Assembly: GCF_004010195.1 (NCBI RefSeq)
Contig: NC_057712.1
Coordinates: 62,430,539 to 62,494,538, forward strand
Direction: 5' to 3'
Length of the DNA: 64,000 nt
Origin: Chiloscyllium plagiosum
Taxonomy: Eukaryota
The notes under the pieces are model-generated. The model was given only the letters and a program-made list of their open reading frames with translations, searched no databases and was not told where the DNA came from. The position numbers and the translations under genes are program-made. Of this stretch, positions 1,276-60,159 are shown piece after piece (the first letter of the stretch is position 1; every line of letters starts with the position of its first letter).

Positions 1276-2034
1276 GCTGGTCAAGAATAAATGCTTGCAC
1301 AACCAACAATGCCCATATCCCTTGAAAAACATACAAACTCCCCCTCCAATTACCCTGCTGCAGCTTGCATTTACAATTTGTAAGTGGATGCAAGCAGCTC
1401 ACCAGCTCCTGTCAGTATTTATTTATTCACATTTAGATATTTAATCATCAGGCTGCATTCTGTAACTCAGTTAACCAATAGCACAAATTCAAATCACATT
1501 AAGTGTTTTTTAAACATCCTCCACTGTTCATCAGTTGTTTTACCCATGAGCAGTGGACAGTCTCGATCTCATTAAAGTAGGCCTTACCTAAATCATGACG
1601 ACTTTGCTTCACAAGAGAAATCCAACAAAGTGAGCTATTTACAATTTGTTTTGCAGTATGAAGTTAATTCCTGCTGCAGGAATTCACCACTACACAACTG
1701 TGCATTGTGGTAATACTGTTCATTTAGCTTAGTTAGTGCAATTGGATGCTTTGTGATAATCACTACACATTTTAAGAATGGTTTTAAAAAATGCATAAAA
1801 ATACAAAGGACATTCATTCCAATTACCAACTCCCACAAATCATAAAAAATATATCCTAATAGGGCGAAATTTTATTTATTTTATCTGTAGAAAATGAACT
1901 TCATGCAATCGACCCATTTTCACATCAAACTTATTTAACCATATCGAGGTATCTTCCATAGATAGCATTTTGGTCCAGCAGCAGAGAGAGACAAACATGT
2001 TCTGTGGATTGAGACTGTAGTCTGTATAAGCATG

Positions 2035-2154
2035 GAGAAAGTGAGGACTGCAGATGCTGGAGATTAGAGCTGAAAATGTGTTGCTGGAAAAGCGCAGCAG
2101 GTAAGGCAATACCCAAGGAACAGAAGAATCGACGTTTCGGGCATAAGCCCTTCT
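2035..2154 (-). mobile_element. Short Penelope-derived terminal-repeat insert
   Basis: 14-bp TSD TCTGTATAAGCATG (2021-2034 / 2155-2168). Contains GAAGAAGGGCTTATGCCCGAAACGTC on minus. Confidence 0.8.
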
Positions 2155-2829
2155 TCTGTATAAGCATGCCAAGGTCACAAATCCCGTGACTCTTACATAC
2201 ACTAAATTTCCCACTACCATCCCCTCAACAAGAAACAATTCAGGGTTGGAACAAGAGATAATTGAGGGGGTAAGGTAGGTTAGGGCAGATACTTTGGGCC
2301 AACACTGCTGCTTCTTGCATTTTAGGAGTCCATGCTAGTAACACACTTAGCTGCTGGATCCACAACTTGGTATTTTCCTAAATCTGCTGTGTTCCAAGCA
2401 TCCAGAGAACCAACTCGAAACCATTTGGATGTAAAGGCTAAGTTCTCCAGATGACTCATGACTGTACTAACCAGTCTCTCAGACACAGCTACTTTACTCT
2501 GATTTGAAGCAGTTTGGAGGCAAACAGAAGTAAATGCAGTTGTTTCACCTGTCCTCAATAAAGAGGTAGCTCATGCATTTTGTACTACTGACACTTGAAT
2601 GATATACAGTATTCCAGGCTATTGATACAGGGATGATGTGGAATCTTTAATATCATTTAAGGTCAGGATAGTGCGAGACTTGAGGGGAGCTTGTGGGTGC
2701 TTGTTTATCTACAGCCCTTTTCCCCCCGAGGCAGTTCAGATTGCAGGTTTTGGGGGTGCTTTTAAAAACATCTTGGTGAATAACTGCCATGCATCTTCTA
2801 GATGAAGGATCATAGATAGGAGCTGGAAT

Positions 2830-4140: not shown

Positions 4141-5206
4141 TTTTATTGACACAAGGTCACGGAGAAGACAACTAAAGAGAGTTGGGTCTATGTCATAACT
4201 CTCAGGAAGTCTGACAGGACTATCAAAGAAACACCTTGTTTTCAGTAATATTGAAAAAGGCACAAACATTACTTTGTGTCATCAATTTCTCAAGGGGGAG
4301 GGATGGAGGGCAGCTGAGGCAAGAAGCAGGAAAAATAAATGGAAAAAGTTATCCAAATCCATAAAATACTGACAAAAAAGCATAATGCTGAGGAACACTA
4401 GTTTTGCTCTAAGAACTTCGACCATGTAACACTTCATTCCACAGCAGAAATCCCTATTTTGTGTTCAATATACATTGAAATATTCAAGCTTTCATTAAGT
4501 TCCCGTATCTTGTAGATTAGGTTAGTTGTCCTTAGGACTACTGCAATGTTGCACTGGCCAGCCATAAAAAGACAAATCTTTTCAATCCTTCTCCAAAATG
4601 AACAGATGTTTAACTAACGATACAAGCAACATGGGAAAAAGATAACTTCCTGTTATTGTAGTTAGATACACCCTGTGCTATTGCTCAATTAACATGAAAA
4701 TCAGTGCGTGCTTTTTAAAAAGATATTTTCTAATCAACCTGTTCGTAGATGTTATTATACACCACTGAAGGTGGTGAGACTTGAACTCAGGTCTCCTGAC
4801 CCCGAGGTAGGAATATTACCATTGTGCCACAGGAATTCATAATGCTTTCTGTTCTATTGAAGCCTACGCAGAGAAAATACCATGTATTCACCAAGACATG
4901 AGCTGAAACTGGAATGTTTGCAACCAGTTTGGCAACTTCATGACGACAATTTTAAAACAGTTGTAATTGAATTAACTCAAGAGTGGAGGTCATCTTCAAG
5001 CAAGAAAATTTAAACACAAACTTTTCATTTTCCAAACAAACGTGTGTGCATGAGGTGGCAGGCAAACAGAACTACACAACTTTTGACAAAAGTTTATACA
5101 TCTCCCTTCCATTGCGTATTCCATCACAAAACAATTTTACATCGAAAATTTTTGACCACTGTTACCTACGGAAGAAAATATTTCAATTGACAAAAAAAAA
5201 CCTTAC

Positions 5207-5310
5207 CTCTTCAATTATTTCAATGAGATCTCCAGTCTTGATTTCCAATTCATCCTCATTTTGAGGGATATAATCAAACAGTGTTTCGCATTGCCTCTTC
5301 TTCAACCTTC
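5207..5310 (-). CDS. CD2AP: CD2AP coding exon (exon-4-like), start of second SH3 domain: (R)[34 protein letters not shown]
   Basis: 104-nt exon, acceptor cccaacAG and donor GTAAGG on the minus strand. Closely matches human CD2AP SH3[33 protein letters not shown] as I recall it. Phase-1 start fits the upstream exon. Confidence 0.93.
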
Positions 5311-6619
5311 CTGTTGGGATTGACATCACAAAGTTCCTTCAGTGGTATGAACTGGAATTGATTTTACAAGAAGCTCTGTCGCTCAACTATAACCTAATAA
5401 ATGACAATTTTAATCTAAAATTTGCAGAAAATTTGGTTTGCAAATTAAGTAGCTTTCCCGGGAAGCTCCTCACTTATCACCCTCCCACTCTCTGCTGCAC
5501 CAAGTTTCTGAAATAGCACCAAACTATCTAATTATAGTGCAAGAGTACAACAACACAAATTGCTGCACTTGTCAATTTCAGAACACATTTATGAAAAAGC
5601 TGAAGTCTATGTTTACCAACACTTAAAGTTCCAGATGTCACCATTGGAAACTACGTTTTTAAAACCATGACTGACCTTTGCTCAAAGTATAGCAGTTTGT
5701 ATTATCTGCTGAGTAATTCTCAAATTCTACAATATTCCCCTTTCAGAAAAATCCTCTGAAACTCCCTTTGGTGAAAACAATTTCTACTTTGAAGGCAACT
5801 CAACACATAATGCAGTGACATTTAAAATAAAAGTACTCGGAGTCCCAGGTTTTTGAGTCACTGATAAGAGGGGAATGGTGATAAGGAGGAAAATTTGCAG
5901 TTTGGAGAGAAATTTGCAGTTAAAAGGTATTTCCATGCATTCATAACCCCTGTCCTATTAGGAGGTTGCTGTCATGGATTCAAAAGGTGCTGTTACGTAG
6001 TGTCGGAGAAACTGTGCAGCCGATCTTATAAATCCAATGCTTCCTACACCAATGTGGAAAGCTGAAGTGGATGAATGTCAAAGGCGGTAGACGGGGAGCT
6101 AATCAAGCAGGCTGCTTGGATAACATTTTGGAACTGTACCCATCCAGGTAAGTGGAGGGTATTTCATTACACTCCTGATGAGCCTATAGAAATGATGGAC
6201 AGGCTACAGTGATTCAAGAGGTGAGCTATTCACTGCAGAATTCCCAGCCCCTGGCCTGCTCTAGCACTTCCAGTATTCATATGGTTGGTCCAGTTCAGAT
6301 TCGGGTCAAAGATAACCCCCTGCAATATTCATGGCAGTGGCTAAAGTAATGATATCAACGTTAAAAGTCATGGGGAGATGACAGCTAGGATGGGCAATAA
6401 ATGCTGGCCAGCGGGTAATGCCCACATCCCATGAGTGATTTAAGCAAAGCACTGACAAAAAACAGTGGGTAATGATATATACATTTAATCTTTTTCTGTG
6501 CTATACAGATGACAGTTAGTTAACACTTACTGTTGTTACCATTCGATTCAGCACCCCCACGGTAGGGAAGAGAACTTTCACTTGAGCGTCCATACTTGAC
6601 TACCAGGTGAACATGTTGG

Positions 6620-7720
6620 TAAAAAGAGTACAGAAGATAGGAGAAGGGTTAAGCCAACCAAGCCCTTAAGCCAGCTCCATTGTTTAATATGATTATAGCT
6701 TATCAAAGCTGAATACACTAGTCACATCCTCCATCTCCTCTTCTTCTCTGCCAGCCTCCATCACTTCCTCCAGCAGCTCGTTACATACACGCACCACCCT
6801 CTGCATGAAAAAGTTGCCCCCGAGTCCATTGTAAATCTTTTCCCACTCACCTTAAACCTATGCCCTCTAGTTTTAAGCTCCCCTACCCTGGGAAGACGAC
6901 CTTGGCTATCCATGCCAGTCTTGAATTTATAAACTTCGGTAAGGTTTATATAATCTCAGCCTCGAGCGCTCCAGGGGAAATAGTCCCTCTCTATTCAGCC
7001 CCTCCCAATAGCCCAAACCCTCCAATCCTGGCAACATCCTTGTAAATCTTCCCTGAACCCTTTCAAGTTTCACAACATCTTTCCGATAGCAGGGAGAATC
7101 TCCTCCCCAGAACTGTACACAGTATTCCCAAAGTGGCCTAACCAATGTCCCGTACAGCCACAACATGACCTCCCGACTCCTATACTGACCAATAAAGGCA
7201 AGTGTACCAAAGCCTGCTTCAATACTGTCTACCTGTGACTCCACCTTCAAGGAGCTATGAACCTGCAGTCCAAGGTCTCTTTGTTCAGCAACACTACCAG
7301 GATCCTACTATTAAGTGGATAAGTCCTGCTAAGATTTGCCTTTCCAAAATGCAGCACCTCACATTGACCTAAATTAATCTCCATTTGCCCCTCCTTGTCC
7401 CATTCACCCAACTAATCAAGCTCTCCTTGTACTCAGATATCCTCCTTCGCTGTCCACTATACAACCTGTTTTGCAGATAATACCAAAACAGGTTGTATAG
7501 TGGACAGCGAAGGAGGATATTTACAGATAACACCAAATATACTCACCATTCCTCCTATATTCACATCCAAATTACCTATATAAATGACAAAAAGCTGTGG
7601 ACCCAGCACAGATCCTTGCGGCACACTGCTGGTCACAGGCCTCAAGTCCAAAAAAAAAATCCTCCACTACCACCTTCTGTCTCCAACCTTCAATCCAATT
7701 GTGTATTCAAATTGCCAAAG
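6620..7720 (-). mobile_element. CR1/HER1-like LINE 3' fragment
   Basis: TSSVPQGSVLGPQLFVIYI and LVRPLWEYCVQFW...ERVQGRFTRMLPGL in minus ORFs. Confidence 0.85.
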
Positions 7721-8589: not shown

Positions 8590-9545
8590 TGATTCAATTT
8601 GGTATTGTCACATGTACTGAAATGGAGTGAAACACACTGTTTTCATGCTGTTCAAGTAGATCAAATCATACACAAATACATCAGGCGACTCGAACAAAAT
8701 GCAGAACAGTGGTCCAGCTACAGAGAAAGTGAAGAGAGAAATCAACTTCTATATTTGAGGGGTCTATTCAAAAGTTTGATAAGTGGGGAAGGAGCTATTC
8801 TTGAATCTGTTAGCACGTGTTTCCAAACGTTTGTATCTTCTGTGTGATGGAACAGGGTGGGAGAGAGTATGAAAATGTGTTGCTGGAACAGTGCAGCAGG
8901 TCAGGCAGCATCCAGGGAACAGGAGAATCGACGTTTCGGGCATATCAGAGCTGAAAATGTGTTGCTGGAACAGCGCAGCAGGTCAGGCAGCATCCAGGGA
9001 ACAAGAGAGAGTATGACTGGGGTGGCAGGGGCTTGAGGATATTGGCTGCTTTCCCAAGGCAGCGGGGAGTGCAGATGGCAGCAATAGAAGGAAAGCTGGT
9101 TTGCGGGATGGACTGCGCTGTGATCATGACTCTCTGTAATTTCTTATGGTCTTAGGCAGACCAGTTGTCATACCACATTCGGATGCATTTGGATTGGATG
9201 CTTTCAGTATAAAGTTTGGTAAGTGTCTTTCCTTAGCCTTCTAAGGAAATAGAGGTATTGTTTTGCTTTTTTGATCAGAGCAATGTGGGTGGACCAGGAC
9301 AGATTGTTGGTGATCATCATTCCCAGGAATTTGACACACTATCATCTCTCCCTCAGCACCATTGATGCAGATCAGGGTGTGTTCACCACTCAGCTTCCTT
9401 ATGTCGATGACAACCTCCTGCATTTTGCTGATGTGAATGGAGAGATTGTTATGTTCACACCATGCCTCCAAACACTCAATGACTCTGTCTTACCATTATT
9501 TGAGATCTGACCCATCAGTGGCATTGCCAGCAAACTTGAAAATAC
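8590..9545 (-). mobile_element. Rex1/Babar (L2-like) LINE 3' fragment, interrupted by a Penelope-derived insert at 8873-9004
   Basis: WCEHNNLSIHISKMQEVVIDIRK; RCLGKAANILK. Confidence 0.7.
8873..9004 (-). mobile_element. Tandem partial Penelope terminal-repeat insert
   Basis: 12-bp TSD GAGAGAGTATGA (8861-8872 / 9005-9016); two head-to-tail ~55-bp units. Confidence 0.75.
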
Positions 9546-13814: not shown

Positions 13815-15085
13815 CAAATAAAAACAGAAATTGCTGGATAAGCTCAGCAGGTCTGGCAGTGTCTCTGAAGAGAAATCAGAGTTAACATTTCAGGTCCAGT
13901 GATCCTTCCTCAGGACTGATGGTAGCTCGGAAAATGTTGGTTTATATGCAAAAGTCAAGGTGTGGGGTTGGGGTAAAAAATAAACAATAGGTGGGGATAG
14001 ACCCCAAAGAGATGATTTGATTAGATTAGATACTCTACAGTGTGGAAACAAACCCTTTGGCCCAATAAATTCACACCGACCCTCCAAAGAGTAACCCACC
14101 CAGACCCATTTCCCTCTGACTAATGCACTTCTTTGAACTGTGGGAAGAAACCGGAGCAGCCAGAGGAAACCCACGCTGACATGGGGTGACCGTCCAAACC
14201 CCACACAGACAGACACCCGCCCGATGCTGGAATCAAACCCGGGTCCCTGGCACTGTGAGGCAGGGGTGCTAACCACTGAGCCACTGTGCCACCCCGAGAG
14301 AGAAGAACACAGACAGACAAACTAACTAGAAGGGTGAATAGCTATTAATGAGGGTTGTTAGTGGCTAACAACGGGTAGTGTGTAATAGTAGATTACATGA
14401 TAACAAGGTCCGGCATGTGGGGGTTGAGTTAAGGACATGACAGAGCCTAAGCCCTAGAGTTGAATTCTATATTGAGTCCAGAAGGCTGCAGAGTTCCCAA
14501 GCAGAAAATTAGGTGCTTGTCTTCCAGCTTGTGCTAAGCTTTGACTGAGGAGTGCAGCAAGACTGAGCCTTAAATGTTGGCCAGGGAACAGGGTGATGTG
14601 TTCAAGCAGTAGGCAACTGAACATTTAGGGTCTTTGCAGGCAGAATACAGGCATTCCTAGTGGTCACTCACTGCATGCTTAGTTTCCCCAATGTAGAGGG
14701 AACAACACTGAGCAGGGAGTGCATTAATGAGATTGTGTCAAGTGCAGGTAAAGCATTGCTTCACTAGGAACGCGTGTTTGGGCCCTTGGATACTGAGGAG
14801 TGAAGAACTAAACAGACAGGTGCTATGCCTTCTGCAGTTGCAGAGAAAGGTGCTGTGGCAGGGTGTTGGGAGTAAAGGAGAAGAACAGGGTGTCCCGGAG
14901 GGAATGCTTTCCACAGAAGGTGAGGGGAGTGTGTGCGTGGTGATGGCAGCATCTCATTGGAACTAGCAGAAAGGCCAGCTAATGATCCTATGGACGTAGA
15001 CGCTGGTGGGATGGTAAGTCAGGACAAGGGGAACCCTTTCACCACTGCAGGAGACAAGAGAGGTGGTGAGGGCTGAAGTGCAGGA
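13815..15085 (-). mobile_element. Penelope-like element 3' part (GIY-YIG relic, 3' region, terminal repeat), interrupted by a SINE
   Basis: Decayed LYIGETK-like region near 14680-14700; terminal repeat with CTGAGGAAGGATCACTGGACCTGAAATGTT. Confidence 0.7.
14015..14295 (-). mobile_element. HE1-like SINE nested in a Penelope element
   Basis: tRNA-like head, V-domain, (TCTAA)-like tail. Confidence 0.85.
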
Positions 15086-23425: not shown

Positions 23426-24738
23426 CTTCACTTCTACTCTTCACCACTTGACTCCAATAGATGAAAACTTCACTGGAAAATAATAAAACTACAACATGTA
23501 CCACAAGTAGGTACTCGGACTGACTTTCTTTCAGCGAAAAGTATGACTTGGATCATTGCTTCTAGTCACTCAGGTCAATTTCAGCTGACATAGTACATGA
23601 CTGAAATACAAATAGCAGCAATATGCCATAAGTAAAATAATTTATATTGCTAGTACGTTACACCAAGATTATCCTTAATCAAAATTGGCACATCCTCTAG
23701 TTGATAGTGAGCCTGACTGAGGTGGGCGATATTTAAAAGAGGAGTGGCATTTTTTTAAAAAGCCAAATCCATTAAACATAAAGCCACATGGAAACAAACG
23801 TAAACATAAATGGTTGTTAAGAGTTGTTAAGAGTTTAGGAGTAGCACGTTCGTGCTAAAATGAAGGAGAGGTATGGCAAGTTATGCGAACCTTGGATAAC
23901 CAGGGACATTATGAACTTGATCAAAAAGAGAAAAGGAAACATATACAAGGTCGAGGAGAATGGGATCTGATGAAATCCTTGAAGCATATAAGGAAAATAG
24001 GAAATAACTTCAACAAGGAATTATAAGGGCTAAAAGAAGTCACAAAAAGTTGTAACAAATACGATTAAAGAGACACTGAAGGCTTTTTATGCAAGTATGA
24101 AAAGCAAGAGGGTAAGCCAGGGAAAGACTGGCCCACTCAAGGACAAAGGAGAATCTGTGTGTGGAACTAGAAGAGGTAGGTGAGATCCTAAACAAACACT
24201 TCTTGTACTCATTCACCAAAGAGAAAGAATTAGTGAAGGATGATATCAGGGAAGGGAGTATTGAATTCCTAAGCCAAGTTGCTATTAAAAAGGAAGAGGT
24301 GTTGTGCATTTCAAAAGTAGATAAGTCCCCAGGTCCTGATGGGATCTATCCTAGAATATTGAGGGAGGCAAGAGAACAATTTGCTGGAGCATTAACAGAC
24401 ATCCGTGTATCATCTTTGGCCAAAGGTAAGGTCCCAGAGGATGGAAGAATAGCTAATGTTGTCCCATTGTTTAAGAAGGGTAGCAGGGATAATCCAGGTA
24501 ATTACAGGATTGTAAGCCTCACCTCAGTAGTAGGGAAATTATTGGAAAAGATTCTCAGTGACACTATCTATACACATTTAGAAGCAAATGTGTATAGATT
24601 TTAGTGATAGCATGGTTTTGTGCAGGGGGATCATGCCTCACTGACTAGATGAGGTTTTCTGAGGATGTAACAAAGATGATTAATGAGGGAAAAGCAGTTG
24701 TCGTCGTCTACGTGGACTTCAGTAAATACTTTGACAAG

Positions 24739-24957
24739 GTTAAAAATCACACAACACCAGGTTATAGTCCAACAGGTTTAATTGGAAGCACACTAGCTTT
24801 CGGAGCGACGCTCCTTCATCAGGTGATTGTCCTGATGAAGGAGCGTCGCTCCGAAAGCTAGTGTGCTTCCAATTAAACCTGTTGGACTATAACCTGGTGT
24901 TGTGTGATTTTTAACTTTGTACACCACAGTCCAACACCGGCATCTCCGAATCATGAC
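24739..24957. mobile_element. Palindromic Penelope-derived insert with a perfect 85-bp inverted repeat
   Basis: Arms 24739-24823 and 24831-24915 are exact reverse complements, 7-nt loop; 12-bp TSD TACTTTGACAAG (24727-24738 / 24958-24969). Confidence 0.9.
24788..24828 (-). ncRNA. Candidate minimal type I hammerhead ribozyme (mirror copy on + at ~24828-24866)
   Basis: CAC-CUGAUGA-A-GGAGC(GUC)GCUCC-GAAA-GC-UA-GUG: core, stem II, CAC/GUG stem I, palindromic AGCU stem III. Confidence 0.55.
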
Positions 24958-25002
24958 TACTTTGACAAGTTCCTTCTTGGCAGAATGGTACTATAAAGGT
25001 GA

Positions 25003-25235
25003 ACCTTAGAGTGGTGCTGGAAAAACACAGCAGGTCAGGCAGCAAACAAGGAGCAGGAAAATCAACATTTTGGGCAAAAGCCCTTCATCAGGCATTAGGG
25101 CTAAATTCCTAATGAAGGGCTTTTGCCAAAGCGGTGCTTTTCCTGCTCCTCGGATGCTGCCTGACCTGCTGTGCTTTTCCAGCACCACTCTAATCTTAAC
25201 TCTGATCTCCAGCATCTGCAGTACCCAACTCTGCC
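25003..25235. mobile_element. Second palindromic Penelope-derived insert (different subfamily)
   Basis: ~85-bp imperfect inverted arms around 25095-25105; degenerate TSD TGGTAC..AAAGGTGA (24986-25002 / 25236-25250). Confidence 0.8.
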
Positions 25236-25699
25236 TGGTACAAAAGGTGATGTCACATGGTATTGTGTGTGTGGGTTTAAAAACATCTGGAACGTGTGGG
25301 TAGCACCTGGAACTTGTACCTGGATGAATATCAGAATAGGGAGAGAATAGAGGGATAAGAATCCTGTACATGAGACTAATTATAGTTTGGAAGGGCAAAA
25401 CATGGCACTGACTTGAAGGGCCTGCTCCGATGCTGTACTGTTTCTTGTTTGTCACATTGTCTATATTCTACAGAAATGGCTGCGAATGCTGCCCAAAAGA
25501 TGCAAAACCAGTGAATAGGTCGAAACTATATCAGTCACACTCCAGATAAAATGCTCACTGTGTATCTCTGGGCATAAGTTGCCAGACTTGGTCAAGCTTT
25601 ACTGAGATTTGTTCCAATGTTCACAGCATTCCGCATTCATTTATTACAAAATCAAATGCTCAATGCTTGAAGTCTTGTTACAACTCCACATGATTTTGG

Positions 25700-26338: not shown

Positions 26339-26486
26339 TTCTTCTGACAGACTTTGGTTGAACTGGTAAACCAACAATTGGGAATCCAAAATGACTCATG
26401 CGCTGTACAAGATTGGCAACGTTTCCAGATTTTTCTCGTTTAGTCACTGGGCTTTCCTCTTTTGCATCTGCATCCTTTTTTACTTC
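26339..26486 (-). CDS. CD2AP: CD2AP coding exon (exon-3-like), SH3A-SH3B linker: EVKKDADAKEESPVTKREKSGNVANLVQRMSHFGFPIVGLPVQPKSVRR
   Basis: 148-nt exon, acceptor ttcctttcttgcAG and donor GTAAGT. Resembles human CD2AP KRERHGNVASLVQRISTYGLP. Ends in phase 1 (A) and joins GA of 5310 to give AGA, in frame. Confidence 0.9.
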
Positions 26487-27000
26487 CTGCAAGAAAGGAA
26501 AAATGTTTCAGGCATAAAGCAATAATCTGCTCCTTGCAGAAGAGAAGATTAAGAGGTGACCTTACTGAAGTGTTCAAAATGATTAACAAATTTTGACAGA
26601 GTAAAGGGTATACTCTGTTTCGACTAGTTGGTCTGTCAGTAACGAGGGTTCACAAGTTCAAATTGCCACCAAGATAGCTGGGAGTAAGAGGTGGATCAAC
26701 TTCTTTACTCAGTTGTTAGGATTTGGAATGCACTCTGTCTGGGACTGTGGTGGAGGCAGATTCAGTAAGAGGTTTCAAAAGAGACTGGATGTCTTTGAAA
26801 GTGATAAGTTCAGAGGGCTACAGAGCTAGGGTGCAGTTCTCAATCAGTTTGGTAGCTCTTTCAGGAGCCAGTAGATACAACGGACTAAATGGCTTCCTTC
26901 TGAACAAGAATGTTGTAGGATCCTGTGCAGAGGATTTTGCAATATGGATGCAAAAAATGCAACAAAATTTAAATACTACCATACTGCAGCACTTTCACAA

Positions 27001-27125
27001 CAAAGTTAAAAATCATACAACACCAGGTTATAGTCCAACAGGTTTATATGGAAGCACTAGCTTACGCAGCGCTGCTTTTTCAAGGTGGTTGTGCAGTATA
27101 AGATCATAGGACACAGAATTTATAA
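27001..27125 (-). mobile_element. Single-arm Penelope terminal repeat, same family as 24739
   Basis: GTTAAAAATCATACAACACCAGGTTATAGTCCAACAGG. Confidence 0.75.
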
Positions 27126-27842
27126 ATTCTTACAAAATCCTTGCAAAACAGTATGGATCTGATGTCAAAACTTTGATGCATGTCAGTTACCACCTGAGTC
27201 CCGCAATTCCTCTGCTCGCCTTCCAAACTCATCTTCAATCTCCATGAACCTCTGCTCATCCAAAAATCTACTACACAGACACCTTCTCGCCAACCTACAG
27301 GAACACTCCCTGTCAGCAGTTTAAGCTTCAACTGGGCCTTTCCTTCTTCCCCAGCCCAACAACCCACCATAAAGACGTTAAAATCTGTTGTCTCAGCATT
27401 TCCCCATGCTCTTCAATCCACATTCATGGATGTGCATTTAGCTGTCAAGGCCCTACAGATTGGACGTCCTCTCCACCTTTCCATTTTGTACTTTTAAAGT
27501 CGACTTCAAAACTACTCAAGGCGAAGATTTTAGTCCCATCTTGTCAGAGCTCCTTCTTTAGCTTATTCTGGTTTGTAACACAGCATGGTTATTTTCTAAT
27601 TACAGGCTCTCTATATAGAAATAATTATATGGAAGATGAAGCTCTCAGACTGTTTGGTCTAACCAGTCTACAATCAGTGTTATACTCCATTCCAACTTTT
27701 TTCTCCACCCCTCCCAAACTGCCCTCACTTCATCATCATCATAACCCTCTGTTCTTCTCTCATGATAACCAAACTTCCCATTAAACGGTTATACCATTTG
27801 CCGGAGCCTCTTCCTAGGAGAGAGATTTCCAAAACCTTCCCA

Positions 27843-28475
27843 GGAAGGCACGGTGGCTCAGTGGGTAGCACTACTGCCTCTCAGTGCCAGGGACCTGGGT
27901 TCAATTCCAGCCTTGGGCAACTGTGTGTGGAGCTTGCACATTCTCCCAGAGCCTGTGTGGGTTTCCTCCCACAGTCCAGACACGTGCAGGTTTGGTGAAT
28001 TGGCCAGGCTAAACTGCCTGTAGTGTTCAGGGATGTGTAGAAAAAGTGAGGACTGCAGATGCCAGAGATCAGAATTGAGAATGTGGTGCTGGAAAAGCAC
28101 AGCAGGCCAGGCAGCATCTGAGGAGCAGCAAAATCGAAGTTTCGGGCAAGTTAAGCCCTTCATCAGGAATGAGGCTTGTGGGCTGGGGTCGGAGAGATAA
28201 ACCCGGCCCCCATTTATCTCTCAGACCTTGGCCCACAAGCCTCATCCCTGATGAAGGGCTTTTGCCCGAAACTTCGATTCTGCTGTGCTCGGATGCTGTC
28301 TGACCTGTGCTTTTCCAGCACCCCACACACTTGACTCAGGATGTGTAGGCGAGGTGTGTTAATCAGGGGAAATGTCAAGTAACAGGGTAGGAGAATGGGT
28401 CTGGGTGGGATAAACTTTGGAAGGTTAGTATGGACTTGTTGGGCCAATTGTTTCCACATTGTAGGGATTCTAACA
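27843..28475 (+). mobile_element. HE1-like SINE interrupted by a palindromic Penelope insert
   Basis: GGCACGGTGGCTCAGTGGGTAGCAC head; SINE resumes after 28348. Confidence 0.85.
28041..28338. mobile_element. Palindromic Penelope-derived insert with hammerhead-like cores on both strands
   Basis: 10-bp TSD GGATGTGTAG (28031-28040 / 28339-28348); ~115-bp inverted arms; CTGATGAAGGGCTTTTGCCCGAAAC at ~28248-28272. Confidence 0.85.
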
Positions 28476-37544: not shown

Positions 37545-38775
37545 GTGATATTGACCTATCTGTAAAAGTCAAATTTTGTAGACTATATTTTAAGTTAAAT
37601 TCATAGGGTCGACTATTACATGGATACTACTTTTGAGGGTCTGAAATTCATGCTGCAGTCCAAAATACCATATCAGTAGCAGAAGCCCAACTGATTTCTG
37701 AACAAATAAAGAAAAAATAAATAAAGTAACTATCAAATTGAACCAAAAATCAATTTGTAAGCTTTATTTATGCGTACAAAAAGTGCAGTAGAAATATAAT
37801 AGGGCTTTAAATCACAATTACATGCTTCATCTTAAACATGTCAAATAAAGTTCATTAAAATCCTGCAAAACCTCAACTCAACATCAGCACCAAAAACAGA
37901 TTATCAGGATAATGATATTGTATGGGTCCTCTTAATCGTCGCTGTTCGTAGTTAGCGGTAGCATGTGATCTGTTGTTTCTTCATCTATGTCATCCCATAG
38001 ATGATCATTCTCTGTATTGTCCAATGCATTCAAAATTCCACATTTCTTGAATGATTTGAAAATAGTGTCAGCTTTTATTTCCTTCCGTGAATCAATTATC
38101 CATTCACAGATCAGTGGCAGTGATGGAGCCCACATACTCCCTCTTTTCATGTATGTTTTTTCTCCATCATGCATCCAGTTATTCCTCTTCATTCTCATCA
38201 TGTCCTTAAATAGTTTATTGATACCAACATTTATTGGTTGAAAAACGCTTGTAAGTTCACTGGGAGTTACAACTACATCAGTGTTATGTGATCAACAACA
38301 TTCTTCACTAGATGTGGTCTAAACTAGTCCCAGACAAGATGAGCAAACTCTTTCCTTTGCATAGTTCATCAGGTTGTAAATTCCAAACATCCTCTATCCA
38401 TTTTCTACATCCACCTTCATAAATCCAGCACATGGATGACAATTCCTTTTGTAAATCTCTCCTTTGGCAAAGACTTTTCTCTTAAAAACAGCCATTAGTT
38501 TTAACTTTGTGCCATCAGCCATACAAGAAATAGCTAAAGTAAACCTAATTTTCTCTTGGCCAGTGGTTCTCACCAACTGTTTTTTTTCCCTCCTTTCATT
38601 TCCTTATCATAACATTTACATACACTATAACATATTGACTCTCAATTGTTGATCTGTTATCTGTGAAGAACTAGGGTCAACCTTTACACGACATAAATGG
38701 AAAATGCCAGATTTTTTGGACAAAAATAGGGGGTTGACTTTTACATGAGATCGACCTTTACTCGAGTATATATGG
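37545..38775 (-). mobile_element. pogo/Tc2-like DNA transposon relic (DDE_1 transposase pseudogene, internally deleted)
   Basis: TTGQEKIRFTLAISCMADGTKL, LVWD, PSELTSVFQPINVGINKLFK, KSFKKCGILNALD; end TA|CCATATATACTCGAG; subterminal repeats near 37550-37625. Confidence 0.85.
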
Positions 38776-39720
38776 TAATTAAGTCGATTCAAAGCACCGA
38801 CAGGCACTATCATAAACACACATTAGCAAACGTTAAGTTACATTCATTGATAAAAAAACACACTGATGAATGCCTGCCTGAAAGTTTTGTAGTACATTCA
38901 ATTTTGAAACCTGATCAATAAAGGTATATGGGCTAAGAAGTACAAAGACTGATCATGAACATTTGACAACACATTCTCTTATCTCAAAGAAGCAAACAGA
39001 AACTTTCTAAGACAATCCATTAAATTTTACATCTTCTACTCTGATATCAAAGAATCAGAAAGGCTACAACAAGGAGGAGGTGGATCACGCAACTGGCACA
39101 CCTTCAAGAGCCATTGAGGAGACAACAGGAAATGACATCTTCAACATCACCTTCAGAAACAAATAAACAGAAATCTCACACCATCAAGCCAATAAAAGCC
39201 TGAATCACGTGCTGCCCAAACCAGAGTTCAGGAAGATCACACACTCTAAACAGAGGGAGTGACTAGCAAAAGTTAATAGGCATCAAATTTTAGCAATCAA
39301 ACACTGAACAAACAAGGAGAATGATAGACTGACTTTGACCAGAAGAGACCATGCCACACAGCCCAAAGATGCAAGCCAATGTTCCAAAGTGGACAGACTG
39401 TTTACCAACTATGTTTGTTATGGTGGTACACATTGTACTTATTGCAGTTAACGTAATAAATTCTGCTAATCTTCTAAAGGCACACCCTTGCATAGTTAAT
39501 CATGAGTCACTGATATCAGCTTTCCCAGGTCAGTTTAAAATTCTCATCGACTTCAGTTTTACAATTAAAGCACTTCAAACAAAACTTGTGTAAAATTCTC
39601 CTACTGAAAAATAATCAAGTAGAGAGCTTTTGACAGCCTTGTGATGCTGCCAGCAGCGAAGAATGCATTCTAATGGCGTCTGAATTCTACTATGTATTTG
39701 GCCAGTTTCCAGATCCATAA

Positions 39721-39944
39721 TAAAAACTGAAAGAACTGAGTGTTGTAAATCAGAGACAAAAACACAAATTTCTGGAAAAGCTTAGCAAGTCTGGCAGCAT
39801 CTGTGGAGAGAAATCAGAGTTAATGTTTTGGGTTGAGTGACTTCTGTAGAACAGTCACTCGACCCCAAACATTAACTCTGATTTCTCTCTAAAGATGCTG
39901 CCAGACCTGCAGAGCTTTTCCAGCAACATTTGTTTTTGCCTCAT
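39721..39944. mobile_element. Palindromic Penelope-derived insert
   Basis: Inverted arms around 39842-39853; 9-bp TSD GATCCATAA (39712-39720 / 39945-39953). Confidence 0.8.
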
Positions 39945-40392
39945 GATCCATAACCTCCACTTAATACCAACGAAGAGGGTCGAAAATGCAACCTTATATT
40001 CACCTGATCTGCCAATGCACTTAAGTTTCAGGTAAAGCCAAGAAAAATGCATGGAGAAAACCTGGTGAGATTGAGGCAAGCCAGGTCTGGTTGCAATCAC
40101 CAATAGGAATCAAGGCTGACTTAGCTAATATTACGACAAGCCTCTCCTTTTAAAAAAAATCATAGAAATTATCTAAGTGACTCTGTTGCTGCTGATTGTG
40201 AAGAATGCAGGTAAGAAAGACCTACTAATCTGTGATGCTTATTTCCTCTTTCCTGACATTAGCTCCAAGTCAAAGAAAACTCCAGGCATCCAGCAACGAT
40301 GACATCATGTAATGCATGCAGCCAATCATATTCAAGCATTCTCACAGGCAGCAAGTAAAATGCACTGATTATCCTACACATGTTTACAATTA

Positions 40393-42419: not shown

Positions 42420-43065
42420 CTACAGGAGCAAGCCCTTTTCTCGAACAGTCCTTCCAAGTGAGACACAGGTTCACCTGCCTCTCTTCAAACCTAGTTTACT
42501 GCATCAGGTGCTCCCGATGTCATCTGCTCTACATTGGGGAGATTGAACGTAAACTTAGGGAACGGCTCACTGAGCATCACAGCCAGGTCCGGAGGAGCCG
42601 ACTGGACCTCCCAGTCACCATCAATTTCAATACCTGCAACCACTCCCTTTCTGACATTACCATCTTGGCCTCTTCCATTGCCAAAATAAACCATGGCTCC
42701 TATTGGAGGAACATCGCCTTATCCTCTGCTTGAGCAGCCTACAACCTGGAGGATTCAATATTGAGTTCTCCAATTTCAAATAACCTGTCTCCCAACCCTC
42801 CAACTCCCTTCCCAGCTCCCCCCATCCCTTTTCACTGCTCCCTGCCACCAACCAGATTCATTCCTCCCATTGACCAACCAGTTTGTACCCTCCACCTGTC
42901 TTCACCAACACCCACTTCACCACGCTGCCCCTGCCACCCCCTTTATCTGCAGCTGCCCCCACCCCAGCCCCAGTCCTGAAGAAAGGGTACACCCGAAATG
43001 TCGTCTTCTGCACCTTCTGATGCTGCCTGGCTTCCTGCGTTCTTCCAGTCTCTTGCCTGACTACT
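42420..43065 (+). mobile_element. Penelope-like element 3' end with GIY-YIG endonuclease relic
   Basis: FTCLSSNLVYCIRCSRCHLLYIGEIERKLRERLTEH; terminal repeat with CTGAAGA..GGGTACACCCGAAATGTC. Confidence 0.9.
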
Positions 43066-43259
43066 TTTCTGAAACCACAGCAGACTTTGCTGTCAGAACA
43101 TCCCCAATGCTTTTAATTCCATTTATTGATTTAAACTGAAGGAACAGTAATGTACAGTTCCAAGGTAAACACATTGACTGCAGATGCTGAAAACCAGATT
43201 CTGGATCAATGGTGCTGGAAGAGCACAGCAATTCAGGCAGCATCGAGGAGCTTCAGCAA

Positions 43260-43296
43260 AATCGACGTTTCGGGCAAAAGCCCTTCATCAGAGATA
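43260..43296 (-). ncRNA. Candidate minimal hammerhead ribozyme, sense to CD2AP pre-mRNA
   Basis: CUGAUGA-A-GGGC(UUUU)GCCC-GAAA-CG-UC; stem I weak. Confidence 0.55.
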
Positions 43297-43400
43297 AAGG
43301 CAGAGAGCCTGAAGAGTGGAGAGATAAGCTAGGGGAGGGTGGGGGTGGGGAGAAAGTAGCATAGAGTACAATTGGTGAGTGGGGGAGGGGATGAAGGTGA

Positions 43401-43785
43401 NNNNNNNNNNNNNNNNNNNNNNNNNNNNNNNNNNNNNNNNNNNNNNNNNNNNNNNNNNNNNNNNNNNNNNNNNNNNNNNNNNNNNNNNNNNNNNNNNNNN
43501 NNNNNNNNNNNNNNNNNNNNNNNNNNNNNNNNNNNNNNNNNNNNNNNNNNNNNNNNNNNNNNNNNNNNNNNNNNNNNNNNNNNNNNNNNNNNNNNNNNNN
43601 NNNNNNNNNNNNNNNNNNNNNNNNNNNNNNNNNNNNNNNNNNNNNNNNNNNNNNNNNNNNNNNNNNNNNNNNNNNNNNNNNNNNNNNNNNNNNNNNNNNN
43701 NNNNNNNNNNNNNNNNNNNNNNNNNNNNNNNNNNNNNNNNNNNNNNNNNNNNNNNNNNNNNNNNNNNNNNNNNNNNNNNNNNNNN
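43401..43785. other. Assembly gap (385 N)
   Basis: N run inside the Penelope element. Confidence 1.
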
Positions 43786-45338
43786 TGGGGGGCATCTTTA
43801 ACCACGTGGGAAGGGAAATTTTTCCTTGTTGCGGTTGGAGGGGTTGGGTCTGAGGGCGGGGGTGCGGGATGTGGATGAGATGCGTTGGAGGGCATCTTTG
43901 ACCACGTGGGAAGGGAAATTGCGGTCTTTAAAGAAGGAGGCCATCTGGTGTGTTCTATGGTGGAACCGCTCCTCCTGGGTGCAGATACGGCGGAGGCGGA
44001 GGAATTGGGAATACGGGATGGCATTTTTGCAAGAGGTAGGGTGGGAAGAGGTGTAATCCAGGTAGCTGTGGGAGTCGGTGGGTTTGTAGAAGATGTCAGT
44101 GTCAAGTTGGTCGTCACTGATGGAGATGGATAGGTCCAGGAAGGGGAGGGAGGTGTTAGAGATGGTCCAGGTAAATTTAAGGTCAGGGTGGAATGTGTTG
44201 GTGAAGTTGATGAATTGCTCAACCTCCTCGCGGGAGCACGAGGTGGCGCCAATGCAGTCATCAATGTAGCGGAGGAAGAGGTGGGGAGTGGTGCCGGTGT
44301 AATTATGGAAGCTCCTCGGATGCTGCCTGAACTGCTGTGCTCTTCCAGCACCATTGATCCAGAATGTACAGTTCCAAGTCAGGTTGATGAATGGCAAGGA
44401 AGGGAATCTGTATATGGTAGTGTCTGTATGCATGAGGACTCCTCGTCCTTCCAAGTGAAACTGGTTGGGATGCAAAAGATGCTGTGCTAACAGCCTTGGT
44501 AAACTTTAGCAGTGCATCTTGTAAATGGTGCCTATTGTTACTGTTAGTGGAGGGAGTAAATGTTTCAGACTGTGAAGCCAATGAAATAGCAATTTGTCCT
44601 GAACGTTGTCAAGTTTGTTGTTGTTGGAGCCGCACCCAGACAAGTGATGAGTATTTCCTCACACGCCTGACTTATGCCTTATGGTCAGGCTTTAGGAAGT
44701 CAGGAAGTGAATAAGTCGCTGCAGTATTCCTCACCTCTGATCAATTCTTGTAGCCACCATATTTATATGTCAAGTCCAGTTCAGTTTCTAATCAATGGTA
44801 ATCCCAGCATATTGATATTGAGGTATCAAGTGATGGTAATTCCATTGAATTTTAAGGAGCAACAATTAGAATCACAGAGCAGGTTATCAATAAGTGCTAC
44901 TGGTACTTGTTTGGCTTGAATGTTACTTGCCACTTGTCAGCACAAGCCTAGACATTGTCTACATCTAGCTACATTCAAATATAGACTGATTCAATGTCTG
45001 AGGAGTGCCAAATGGAGCTGAACATTGCACAGTGAACATTCTCATTTCTAATGGAGAGAAGGTCATTGATGAAGCAACTGAAGATGGTTTGACCTAAGAC
45101 CCTGAGGAACATCTGCAGAGACATCCAGGAGGTGGGGTTACTGATCTTCATCAACCATCTTCCTCAATACTAAATTATGGTTCCAAAATCAGAACATTTT
45201 CTCCCAGTTCCTACTGATTCTAATTTTGCTAGGACTAATTTATGCCACAATACCAAATTTGGCCTGATATTAAGGACAGTCGCTCTCACCTCATCTCTTG
45301 AATTTAACTCTTCTCTCCACATTTGAACCAAAGCTACA

Positions 45339-58980: not shown

Positions 58981-59180
58981 TTAAAAATCACAACAGTAGG
59001 TTATAGACCAATAGGTTTATTTGGATGCACTAGCTTTAGCAGTGCTGCGCCTTCATCATGTGGTTGTGGAGCAGTGCTCTGAAACCTAGTTCTTCTAAAT
59101 AAACCTGTTGGATTATAACCTGCTGTTGTGCAATTTTTAACTTTGTCCACCCCAGTCCAACACCAGCTTGTTCACATCAT
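58981..59180. mobile_element. Older palindromic Penelope-derived insert, same family as 24739
   Basis: Diverged inverted arms plus the same 3' tail CCCCAGTCCAACACC. Confidence 0.8.
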
Positions 59181-60159
59181 GCACTTAATTTGGCCTTGGT
59201 ACCACAAAGATAGTATTTTATATTTGTACAATCATACCATTAATGCGAAGAACAAATTCAACTAGCCAAGTAAGCAGCTTAAAACCTTACGAAAAGAGCA
59301 GACATATTTGCTCAAATCACACCCAGGTAATTGACAAAATAAAACATCACGGAACAAAGTCTAATAGGAGGCTTTGAAACAAGCCTTCTGGCTTTTTACA
59401 ACAGGCTTGCAGTTGCCCAATTACGTACTTATGCAAGCTTCCCTCGTCTCAGCAACTCATCTGCTGCTCTTCAACAAAGCAGAAATCAATCTAATAGTTC
59501 AGAGAAATCCAACTGTAGAAAATGTCAGGTTTAATAATGAGAATGTTCAAATTACCATCAATTCTCAACCAAAATACCCAAAGAATATGTACAGAACTGC
59601 ACAAAACGGCAGTATTTTTTCCATTTCTTAATTGGGCAATGTAACACACACAAATGCACCCATAATTTACATGGCAAAAACAAAAACAAATCTACAGGTG
59701 AAACCTTAGATGACATCAAGGCTTACTGATTACTTACATCATTCATTCTTGAACTTTTTCCAAATGGATTAAAAGCTTACACAGGCACCTCACCTGAACT
59801 TAATCCTTAAGACTGAAGAATTGACAGGTTGGACCGAAAGGTCTGTTCCATGCTGTACATCTCTATGATTCTAAATGCATGAAGAGAACGTACAAGTAGT
59901 GCTTTTCCGGAAACAGGTATTCAATTGCATTTATCAGTGAGATGGATAGCTATGCCTATTTTTCCACTGTAAAAGCTGGCTATACTTGGAGTAATGTTCC
60001 ACATTGACATTTACAAATCATTCAATATAAAAGCCAATATTTTTGCTCTTTGCATGGAAAAGTAAATGAAATTGTTCAATATAGTCCCCAAAAATACTTA
60101 TTTTATGTGATTGAAAATGATATTTGGATTTTCTTAAGCTAATATTGTGACCTTGGAGT

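What the first reader, a model, noticed from the sequence alone, without database searches (positions are those of the whole stretch)
24727..24969. Perfect 85-bp hairpin retro-insert with mirror-image hammerhead cores
Seen: exact 85-bp inverted repeat, 7-nt loop, ~40-bp tail and 12-bp TSD, inserted in a CR1 RT. Each arm carries CUGAUGA-A-stemII-GAAAGCUA, so both strands encode a hammerhead-like core. The minus copy (sense to CD2AP) keeps a CAC/GUG stem I. Known: Penelope-like elements carry minimal type I hammerheads that can act as dimers. Inference: a very young non-autonomous unit whose long dsRNA stem would mask the ribozyme and could be an ADAR or Dicer substrate.
Basis: partly seen in the sequence, partly recalled or inferred. 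Interest (0 to 1): 0.7.

Follow-up and report, generated by a model that had tools for sequence, protein, structure and literature searches.

The report
Fold-back stub of Penelope-like retroelement
This perfect hairpin in a shark intron is two head-to-head end pieces of a very common Penelope-like jumping gene, each with that family's small hammerhead motif, so it is a tidy, fairly recent example of an insertion type already described.

Summary
Inverted truncated copy, one-sided tail, short TSD and opposite-strand minimal hammerheads are all published traits of Penelope-like element (PLE) insertions. Four older fold-backs in the window have other junctions or belong to sister families, and their arms have decayed to 80-86% identity. 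This points to a by-product, not a self-copying unit. A related species has the empty site, so the insertion post-dates a split of about 3.7% divergence. A different haplotype of the host carries it, so 'very young' is only partly supported. The hairpin would mask the hammerhead by about 60 kcal/mol, and one transcript holds only one sense copy. Editing, dicing and cleavage were not shown. Extra: the arm holds a poly(A) site that family transcripts use. This family's own ORF was not found. The scan noted this kind before, on other DNA of this genome.

The parts
24727..24738 (.). Target-site duplication, left copy (12 bp); its last 5 bases match the start of the tail with one mismatch (possible priming microhomology)
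   Evidence: single copy at the empty site in organism B (table 8, record 1)
24739..24830 (-). Inverted, tail-less PLE end copy (92 nt: 85-nt arm plus the 7-nt loop); begins 8 nt upstream of hammerhead C3; sense to CD2AP
24791..24825 (-). Minimal type I hammerhead motif: 3-bp stem I, core with C3 at 24822, unpaired A, 5-bp stem II, palindromic AGCU stem III, predicted cut after CUA (between 24795 and 24794)
   Evidence: traits listed in PMC4209133
24739..24782 (-). Poly(A) signal: hexamer 24782-24777, poly(A) added at 24765 or 24762 in family RNA reads, G/U-rich stretch downstream
   Evidence: (table 7); the reads are family-level, not shown for this locus
24824..24830 (.). 7-nt loop; it belongs to the minus copy (upstream family sequence)
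24831..24915 (+). Direct PLE end copy, cut 1 nt upstream of C3 (24832); core intact, stem I reduced to 1 bp
24916..24957 (+). One-sided PLE tail (42 bp); differs from the family majority at 24926 and 24948
24958..24969 (.). Target-site duplication, right copy
24100..24998 (+). Decayed CR1-type LINE RT fragment that received the insertion
24999..25240 (+). Older fold-back of a sister PLE family (arms 84 of 98 identical, tail on the right); already present in organism B
26339..26486 (-). CD2AP exon; its donor lies 1381 bp upstream of the element, in a 19.7-kb intron
27000..27130 (-). Same family, older single tail-less copy that runs about 45 nt further upstream and ends in a 16-bp palindrome (27115-27130)
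58981..59181 (+). Same family, older fold-back with tail; junction inside stem II; arms 57 of 71 identical

Best explanation
A dead-on-arrival mini-insertion of an endonuclease-bearing Penelope-like retroelement. SHOWN: the anatomy, the insertion into an empty site, and a very abundant family with variable junctions. INFERRED: the element's GIY-YIG nuclease cut both strands 12 bp apart. Its RT copied the terminal repeat of an uncleaved RNA from two start points 42 nt apart, one copy on each strand: the tail end at the right nick, and the internal site at the left nick, helped by 4-5 bp of pairing with the target end. Both copies stopped next to the hammerhead and were joined head to head. The hammerheads are passengers of the repeat. 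In the CD2AP pre-mRNA the antisense arm is made first, so the hairpin buries the hammerhead and the poly(A) signal. It is a passive dsRNA that should decay by mutation like its older neighbours.
For: Published PLE traits match: adjacent inverted truncated copy plus a 30-40-bp tail at one end, with an 8-10-bp TSD; dual minimal hammerheads about 100-700 bp apart on opposite strands; both strands nicked and extended, two RT start sites bounding the tail, hammerhead cleavage not needed. Both arms reach upstream of the predicted cut site, so the template was uncut. Many contigs end at 24916/24917 with unrelated flanks in X2 (195 and 170) and X14 (203 and 167), the tail-less end. Three family copies in the window, three junctions; paralog contigs show further junctions (table 5). 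Sister hammerheads lie downstream of GIY-YIG or PLE RT remnants. Older arms are 80-86% identical.
Against: No ORF of this family was found, so PLE membership rests on anatomy and on sister families. The tail is 42 bp and the TSD 12 bp, slightly above the published ranges I saw. One organism-B contig spans a very similar hairpin centre (81 nt, 5 differences, 1 gap), and some junction forms have depths in the hundreds, which re-copied hairpins could also give. Two separate cDNAs and fold-back self-priming cannot be told apart from the sequence.
Confidence: 0.85

Rival explanations
1. Same PLE origin, but the second arm arose by fold-back self-priming: the tail-less cDNA snapped back and copied itself, then joined the tail cDNA.
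For: Head-to-head PLE palindromes were read as self-priming in PMC3846280. The 58981 copy has a 4-nt match and a 16-nt loop at its junction. Identical arms follow automatically.
Against: This copy has no priming complementarity at its junction: the loop ends do not pair. The tail would need a second priming anyway. The purified PLE protein extends both strands without fold-back.
Confidence: 0.35
2. A dedicated non-autonomous hairpin retroelement: the 219-nt unit is transcribed and re-copied as a whole by PLE proteins.
For: Very high family abundance; a similar centre in one organism-B contig; some junction forms at high depth.
Against: Junctions differ among the 3 window copies. Polyadenylated family reads continue into upstream sequence rather than into a second arm (326 reads). 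The RT would have to pass a stem of -171 kcal/mol. It is not the tandem arrangement that defines non-LTR retrozymes.
Confidence: 0.1
3. A functional RNA switch or regulator kept by the host (masked ribozyme, editing substrate or siRNA source for CD2AP).
For: It lies on a transcribed intron and forms an ideal dsRNA. Lizard Penelope repeats are heavily A-to-I edited.
Against: Absent from a close relative. Older fold-backs lose pairing. All Rfam miRNA matches are below their cut-offs. Monomeric minimal hammerheads did not cleave in vitro.
Confidence: 0.04
4. An assembly artefact or a DNA-transposon MITE.
For: Perfect palindromes can be assembly errors; no contig spanning this centre was listed.
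Against: The inverted left junction is in a contig of a different haplotype, and the empty site has one TSD copy. The tail is one-sided, so the ends are not terminal inverted repeats. The same anatomy recurs in decayed copies.
Confidence: 0.02

Closest known systems
Insertion units of canonical EN+ Penelope-like elements: inverted 5'-truncated copy plus one-sided tail (Arkhipova et al. 2013, PMC3846280; Craig et al. 2021, PMC8557442)
   Same: Head-to-head inverted pLTR pieces, tail on one arm only, short TSD.
   Different: Reduced to the last 92 and 127 nt with no ORF; tail 42 bp and TSD 12 bp against 30-40 bp and 8-10 bp in the passages read.
Minimal hammerheads (min-HHR) of metazoan PLEs (Cervera and de la Pena 2014, PMC4209133)
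   Same: Core, unpaired base between 9 and 10.1, G10.1-C11.1 pair, palindromic 15.2-16.2, dual motifs on opposite strands.
   Different: Stem I is 3 bp (minus) or 1 bp (plus) against 4-5 bp in the Schistosoma families; the two cores start only 10 bp apart; no shark family was named in the parts read.
Poseidon element of Anolis (PAc; Frangieh et al. 2024, PMC11167929)
   Same: Two 3' ends bounding a tail; a template not cut at the hammerhead.
   Different: In PAc the ORF starts at stem II; here that frame closes after 8 codons (read from the sequence).
Non-LTR retrozymes (bioRxiv 10.64898/2026.07.22.740005)
   Same: Non-coding, PLE-related, type I hammerhead, found in a cartilaginous fish.
   Different: Retrozymes are head-to-tail tandems with two or more same-strand hammerheads; this is head to head with one per strand.
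Palindromic edited repeats, such as frog Harbinger and lizard Penelope (Porath et al. 2017, PMC5625713)
   Same: A self-folding repeat of about 200 nt inside a transcript.
   Different: Editing was not shown here.

Membership tests
EN+ Penelope-like element insertion | Inverted 5'-truncated copy directly adjacent, head to head | tested here: met
   definition
EN+ Penelope-like element insertion | 30-40-bp tail on one end only | tested here: met
   42-bp tail on the plus arm only, 2 bp over the range; two family 3' ends in contigs
EN+ Penelope-like element insertion | Short TSD with an empty site | tested here: met
   12-bp TSD; empty orthologous site in organism B
EN+ Penelope-like element insertion | Terminal repeat linked to an RT + GIY-YIG ORF | tested here: inconclusive
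   No ORF next to the three copies of this family in the window; sister hammerheads at 42976, 13913 and 43291 follow GIY-YIG or RT remnants; no genome held; no outside copies
PLE minimal type I hammerhead | Core, unpaired base after A9, G10.1-C11.1, palindromic stem III, NUH site | tested here: met
   4 cores in the window pass with a palindromic stem III against a mean of 0.12 in 100 approximate shuffles; core invariant in 9 aligned motifs except the 12-15 box in decayed copies
PLE minimal type I hammerhead | Stem I | tested here: inconclusive
   3 bp on the minus copy, 1 bp on the plus copy; 4-5 bp, 2 bp in D. virilis
PLE minimal type I hammerhead | Self-cleavage as dimer or with protein help | not testable with these tools
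   Needs in vitro assay; no pile of read ends was listed in the one RNA run (table 6)
Rfam hammerhead families | Covariance-model match | tested here: not met
   None at E up to 10 for the region, the single arm or a sister hammerhead control
Non-LTR retrozyme | Tandem repeat with at least two consecutive units that each hold a hammerhead | tested here: not met
   Head-to-head, one core per strand; definition
MITE or foldback DNA transposon | Inverted repeats at both termini, flush with the TSD | tested here: not met
   The right end is a 42-bp unpaired tail; the criterion is from my own knowledge
miRNA precursor | Rfam match at the gathering score, or phased small-RNA reads | tested here: not met
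   All matches are below their cut-offs; small-RNA data were not available

The most novel reading that the evidence does not exclude
The PLE terminal repeat carries a working poly(A) site. The head-to-head form silences it, and the hammerhead, because the antisense arm is always transcribed first. Fold-back stubs would then be tolerated in introns in either orientation, while single gene-sense copies risk premature polyadenylation and are purged. Tens of thousands of such hairpins would be a main source of intronic dsRNA and A-to-I editing in these sharks, and some might be re-copied as units.
Probability: 0.15. Interest if true: 0.5.

Novelty: new member of a known kind. Interest (0 to 1): 0.17.

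Why it matters
As a single locus it matters little. It is a clean, dated example of the PLE 'inverted copy plus tail' product, with an empty site in a related species, so it can serve as a lineage marker. The family as a whole offers a very large natural data set for the open question of how PLEs make inverted copies (two primed cDNAs or fold-back). It also allows a test of whether fold-back masking of the repeat's poly(A) site shapes where insertions survive.

Tried and rejected
No whole genome was held, so no direct copy count. Exact-pattern scans found 0 matches in viral contigs and 0 in metagenome contigs with two patterns; genome contigs was not scanned. Rfam gave no hammerhead match; the control shows this is uninformative. 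No RNA holder was listed for the stretch; the one raw RNA run laid (about 2 in 100 of it read) had no reads on unique flanks, which is no evidence on expression. A>G places in that run (15) were close to those in DNA runs (10, 12, 13) and come from paralogs, so editing could not be judged. Pfam on 358 stop-free stretches of 55 aa or more found no CD2AP domain; the exon was found by a splice-site scan. The Atlas search gave only scores under 0.9. A look-up of earlier notes by sequence, by nearby place and by poly(A) words returned nothing. Lunse et al. (PMC5785218) is not held; I know it only as cited. Rejected: intramolecular hammerhead dimer (cores on opposite strands), retrozyme, MITE, miRNA.

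Full report
OBSERVATION. The arms 24739-24823 and 24831-24915 are exact reverse complements over 85 bp, around a 7-nt loop. A 42-bp tail follows (24916-24957), and identical 12-mers flank the unit. The minus strand folds at -171.1 kcal/mol, and 0 of 200 shuffles reach that. Removing the insert and one 12-mer gives an RT reading that aligns across the site with other LINE copies in the window; the host LINE already has stops and frameshifts. 'CR1' is my recalled label. A splice-site scan found an exon at 26339-26486 on the minus strand. Its peptide is 100% identical to CD2AP of Chiloscyllium plagiosum and 98% to two other bamboo or epaulette sharks. Further exons lie at 6523-6600 and 5204-5308. 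The element thus sits 1.4 kb into a 19.7-kb CD2AP intron.

HAMMERHEAD. A descriptor scan found 6 cores with a stem II of 4 bp or more in the window. Four have a palindromic stem III (mean 0.12 in 100 approximate shuffles), and only one, at 24822 on the minus strand, also has a 3-bp stem I (mean 0.01). It shows the traits that Cervera and de la Pena list for PLE minimal hammerheads: unpaired base after A9, G10.1-C11.1, palindromic 15.2-16.2. The plus copy is cut 1 nt before C3 and keeps 1 bp of stem I. Rfam has no hammerhead match for the region, the single arm or a sister motif used as control. Forcing the hammerhead fold inside the hairpin costs about 60 kcal/mol. On either strand the antisense arm is transcribed first, and each RNA holds only one sense core, so neither co-transcriptional folding nor a dimer in cis is available. 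Both arms extend upstream of the predicted cut, so the RNA that was copied had not been cleaved.

FAMILY. Two more copies lie in the window. One, 58981-59181, has the same fold-back-plus-tail anatomy but joins inside stem II. The other, 27000-27130, is a single tail-less copy that runs about 45 nt further upstream and ends in a 16-bp palindrome. Of 9 inverted pairs of 25 nt or more within 400 bp, six belong to five such fold-backs from three families. Their arm identities are 85/85 (this one), 57/71, 84/98, 102/120 and 81/95. Sister hammerheads follow PLE coding remnants: a GIY-YIG stretch ending near 42780 before the core at 42976 (Pfam E 0.0028, below its cut-off), a second one near 14700-14470 before 13913, and an RT stretch at 44277 that lies across an N gap from 43291 (the peptide motifs are recalled). 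For this family no ORF was found.

READS (4 of the 24 runs listed were laid). In organism B (X14), one 631-nt contig at single-copy depth (17.9 against 17.8) joins 24726 to 24958 and goes on into the neighbouring fold-back up to 25034. That junction is locus-specific, so this is the orthologous empty site. The neighbour predates the split and our element post-dates it. Flank divergence is 35 of 951 bases, 3.7%. In X2 (organism A), whose listed flank contigs differ from the window at 11 of 1432 bases, a 90-nt contig holds the left junction without differences at depth 7.07 (single copy 7.2-8.0); only 21 letters lie on the element side. No junction contig was listed for X5, and 1388 joints were not shown, so polymorphism is open. 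Perfect arms have probability 0.04 if the insertion were as old as the split, but 0.46 at a quarter of that age: younger than the split, not necessarily very young. Summed depth over the element is 1.7-5.2 million against 7-18 on unique flanks. The tool warns that this is no copy number; allowing for up to about 31-fold overlap of short contigs, I infer about ten thousand copies or more.

RNA (X21, about 2 in 100 of the run read). 2448 reads lay almost wholly on the two PLE repeats, a few on the LINE, and none on unique flanks, so they are family-level. No pile of ends was listed. 350 and 273 reads carry poly(T) before 24762 and 24765, and 326 continue beyond 24827 into upstream sequence that this copy lacks. 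These places lie 15 and 12 nt after a hexamer at 24782-24777 (minus), followed by a G/U-rich stretch, and the element has no A-run there. About a fifth of the DNA depth carries the canonical hexamer variant (24873). I read this as a poly(A) site in the terminal repeat, used by longer family transcripts. Poly(A) from a 3'-truncated copy beside a genomic A-run is a less likely alternative that I could not exclude. One search returned a single review, of which I did not read those passages; I make no wider claim that this is unpublished.

MECHANISM. Craig et al. describe an inverted 5'-truncated copy directly adjacent to PLE insertions and a 30-40-bp tail at one end (passages). Arkhipova et al. 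describe the same with 8-10-bp TSDs and suggest self-priming (passages). Cervera and de la Pena report dual minimal hammerheads about 100-700 bp apart on opposite strands, no cleavage of the monomer and low cleavage of dimers (parts 1-2 of 4). Frangieh et al. show nicking and extension of both strands, two RT start sites that bound the tail, and insertion without hammerhead cleavage (parts 1-2 of 4). This unit is what those steps give when both copies stop beside the hammerhead. The last 5 bases of the left TSD match the start of the tail with one mismatch, which fits target-assisted priming at the internal site. Two cDNAs against fold-back cannot be decided; this junction has no priming match, the 58981 junction has 4 nt.

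OTHER PAPERS. The retrozyme preprint (parts 1-2 of 5) defines tandem same-strand units, which this is not. Porath et al. (passages) report over 40,000 editing sites in lizard Penelope and heavy editing of a palindromic frog repeat, so ADAR use has precedent. A review (passages) and Schostak et al. (passages) gave background. Searches for Penelope with shark or Chiloscyllium, siRNA or palindromic SINE terms (listings only) showed no paper on this family. No supplements or Repbase entries were seen; the supplements of PMC4209133 and of the preprint may list shark families.

EARLIER NOTES. This scan recorded the same kind many times on other pieces of this genome. These are unchecked AI notes and are not counted as support. 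One note says that 5' ends cluster 8-12 nt upstream of the core; the minus arm here starts at 8 nt, the plus arm at 1 nt.

VERDICT. Real, accurately described, and a new member of a known kind. PLE origin about 0.9, by-product reading 0.85; the fold-back rival is a variant within it. Interest 0.17.

Noticed in passing
window 24739-24782 (-), mirrored at 24872-24915 (+): Poly(A) signal with a G/U-rich downstream stretch; family RNA reads are polyadenylated 12 and 15 nt after the hexamer. A possible cryptic intronic poly(A) site in CD2AP if the hairpin were open.
   Followed up: partly
window 24999-25240: A second, older PLE fold-back of a sister family only 30 bp from the finding, in the same LINE; present in organism B.
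   Followed up: partly
window 28050-28330, 39700-39945, 58981-59181: Further fold-back PLE stubs with arms 80-85% identical.
   Followed up: partly
window 42430-43011 (+), 13875-14700 (-), 43177-44330 (-): PLE remnants with GIY-YIG or RT coding pieces upstream of minimal hammerheads; an N gap at 43401-43785 splits the last.
   Followed up: partly
window 2034-2168: Single sister-family copy with tail, cut inside the hammerhead core and flanked by a repeat of about 14 bp that looks like a TSD.
   Followed up: no
window 7437-7520: Perfect 37-bp inverted repeat with a 10-nt loop in LINE-like sequence, with no hammerhead motif.
   Followed up: no
window 24566-24599: 14-bp perfect inverted repeat in the host LINE, perhaps a template-switch mutation; the organism-B contig stops matching at 24579.
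   Followed up: no
window 37935-38291 (-): DDE_1 transposase fragment, Pfam E 4e-08.
   Followed up: no
window 8877-9006: Two head-to-tail truncated sister-family copies, a partial tandem.
   Followed up: no
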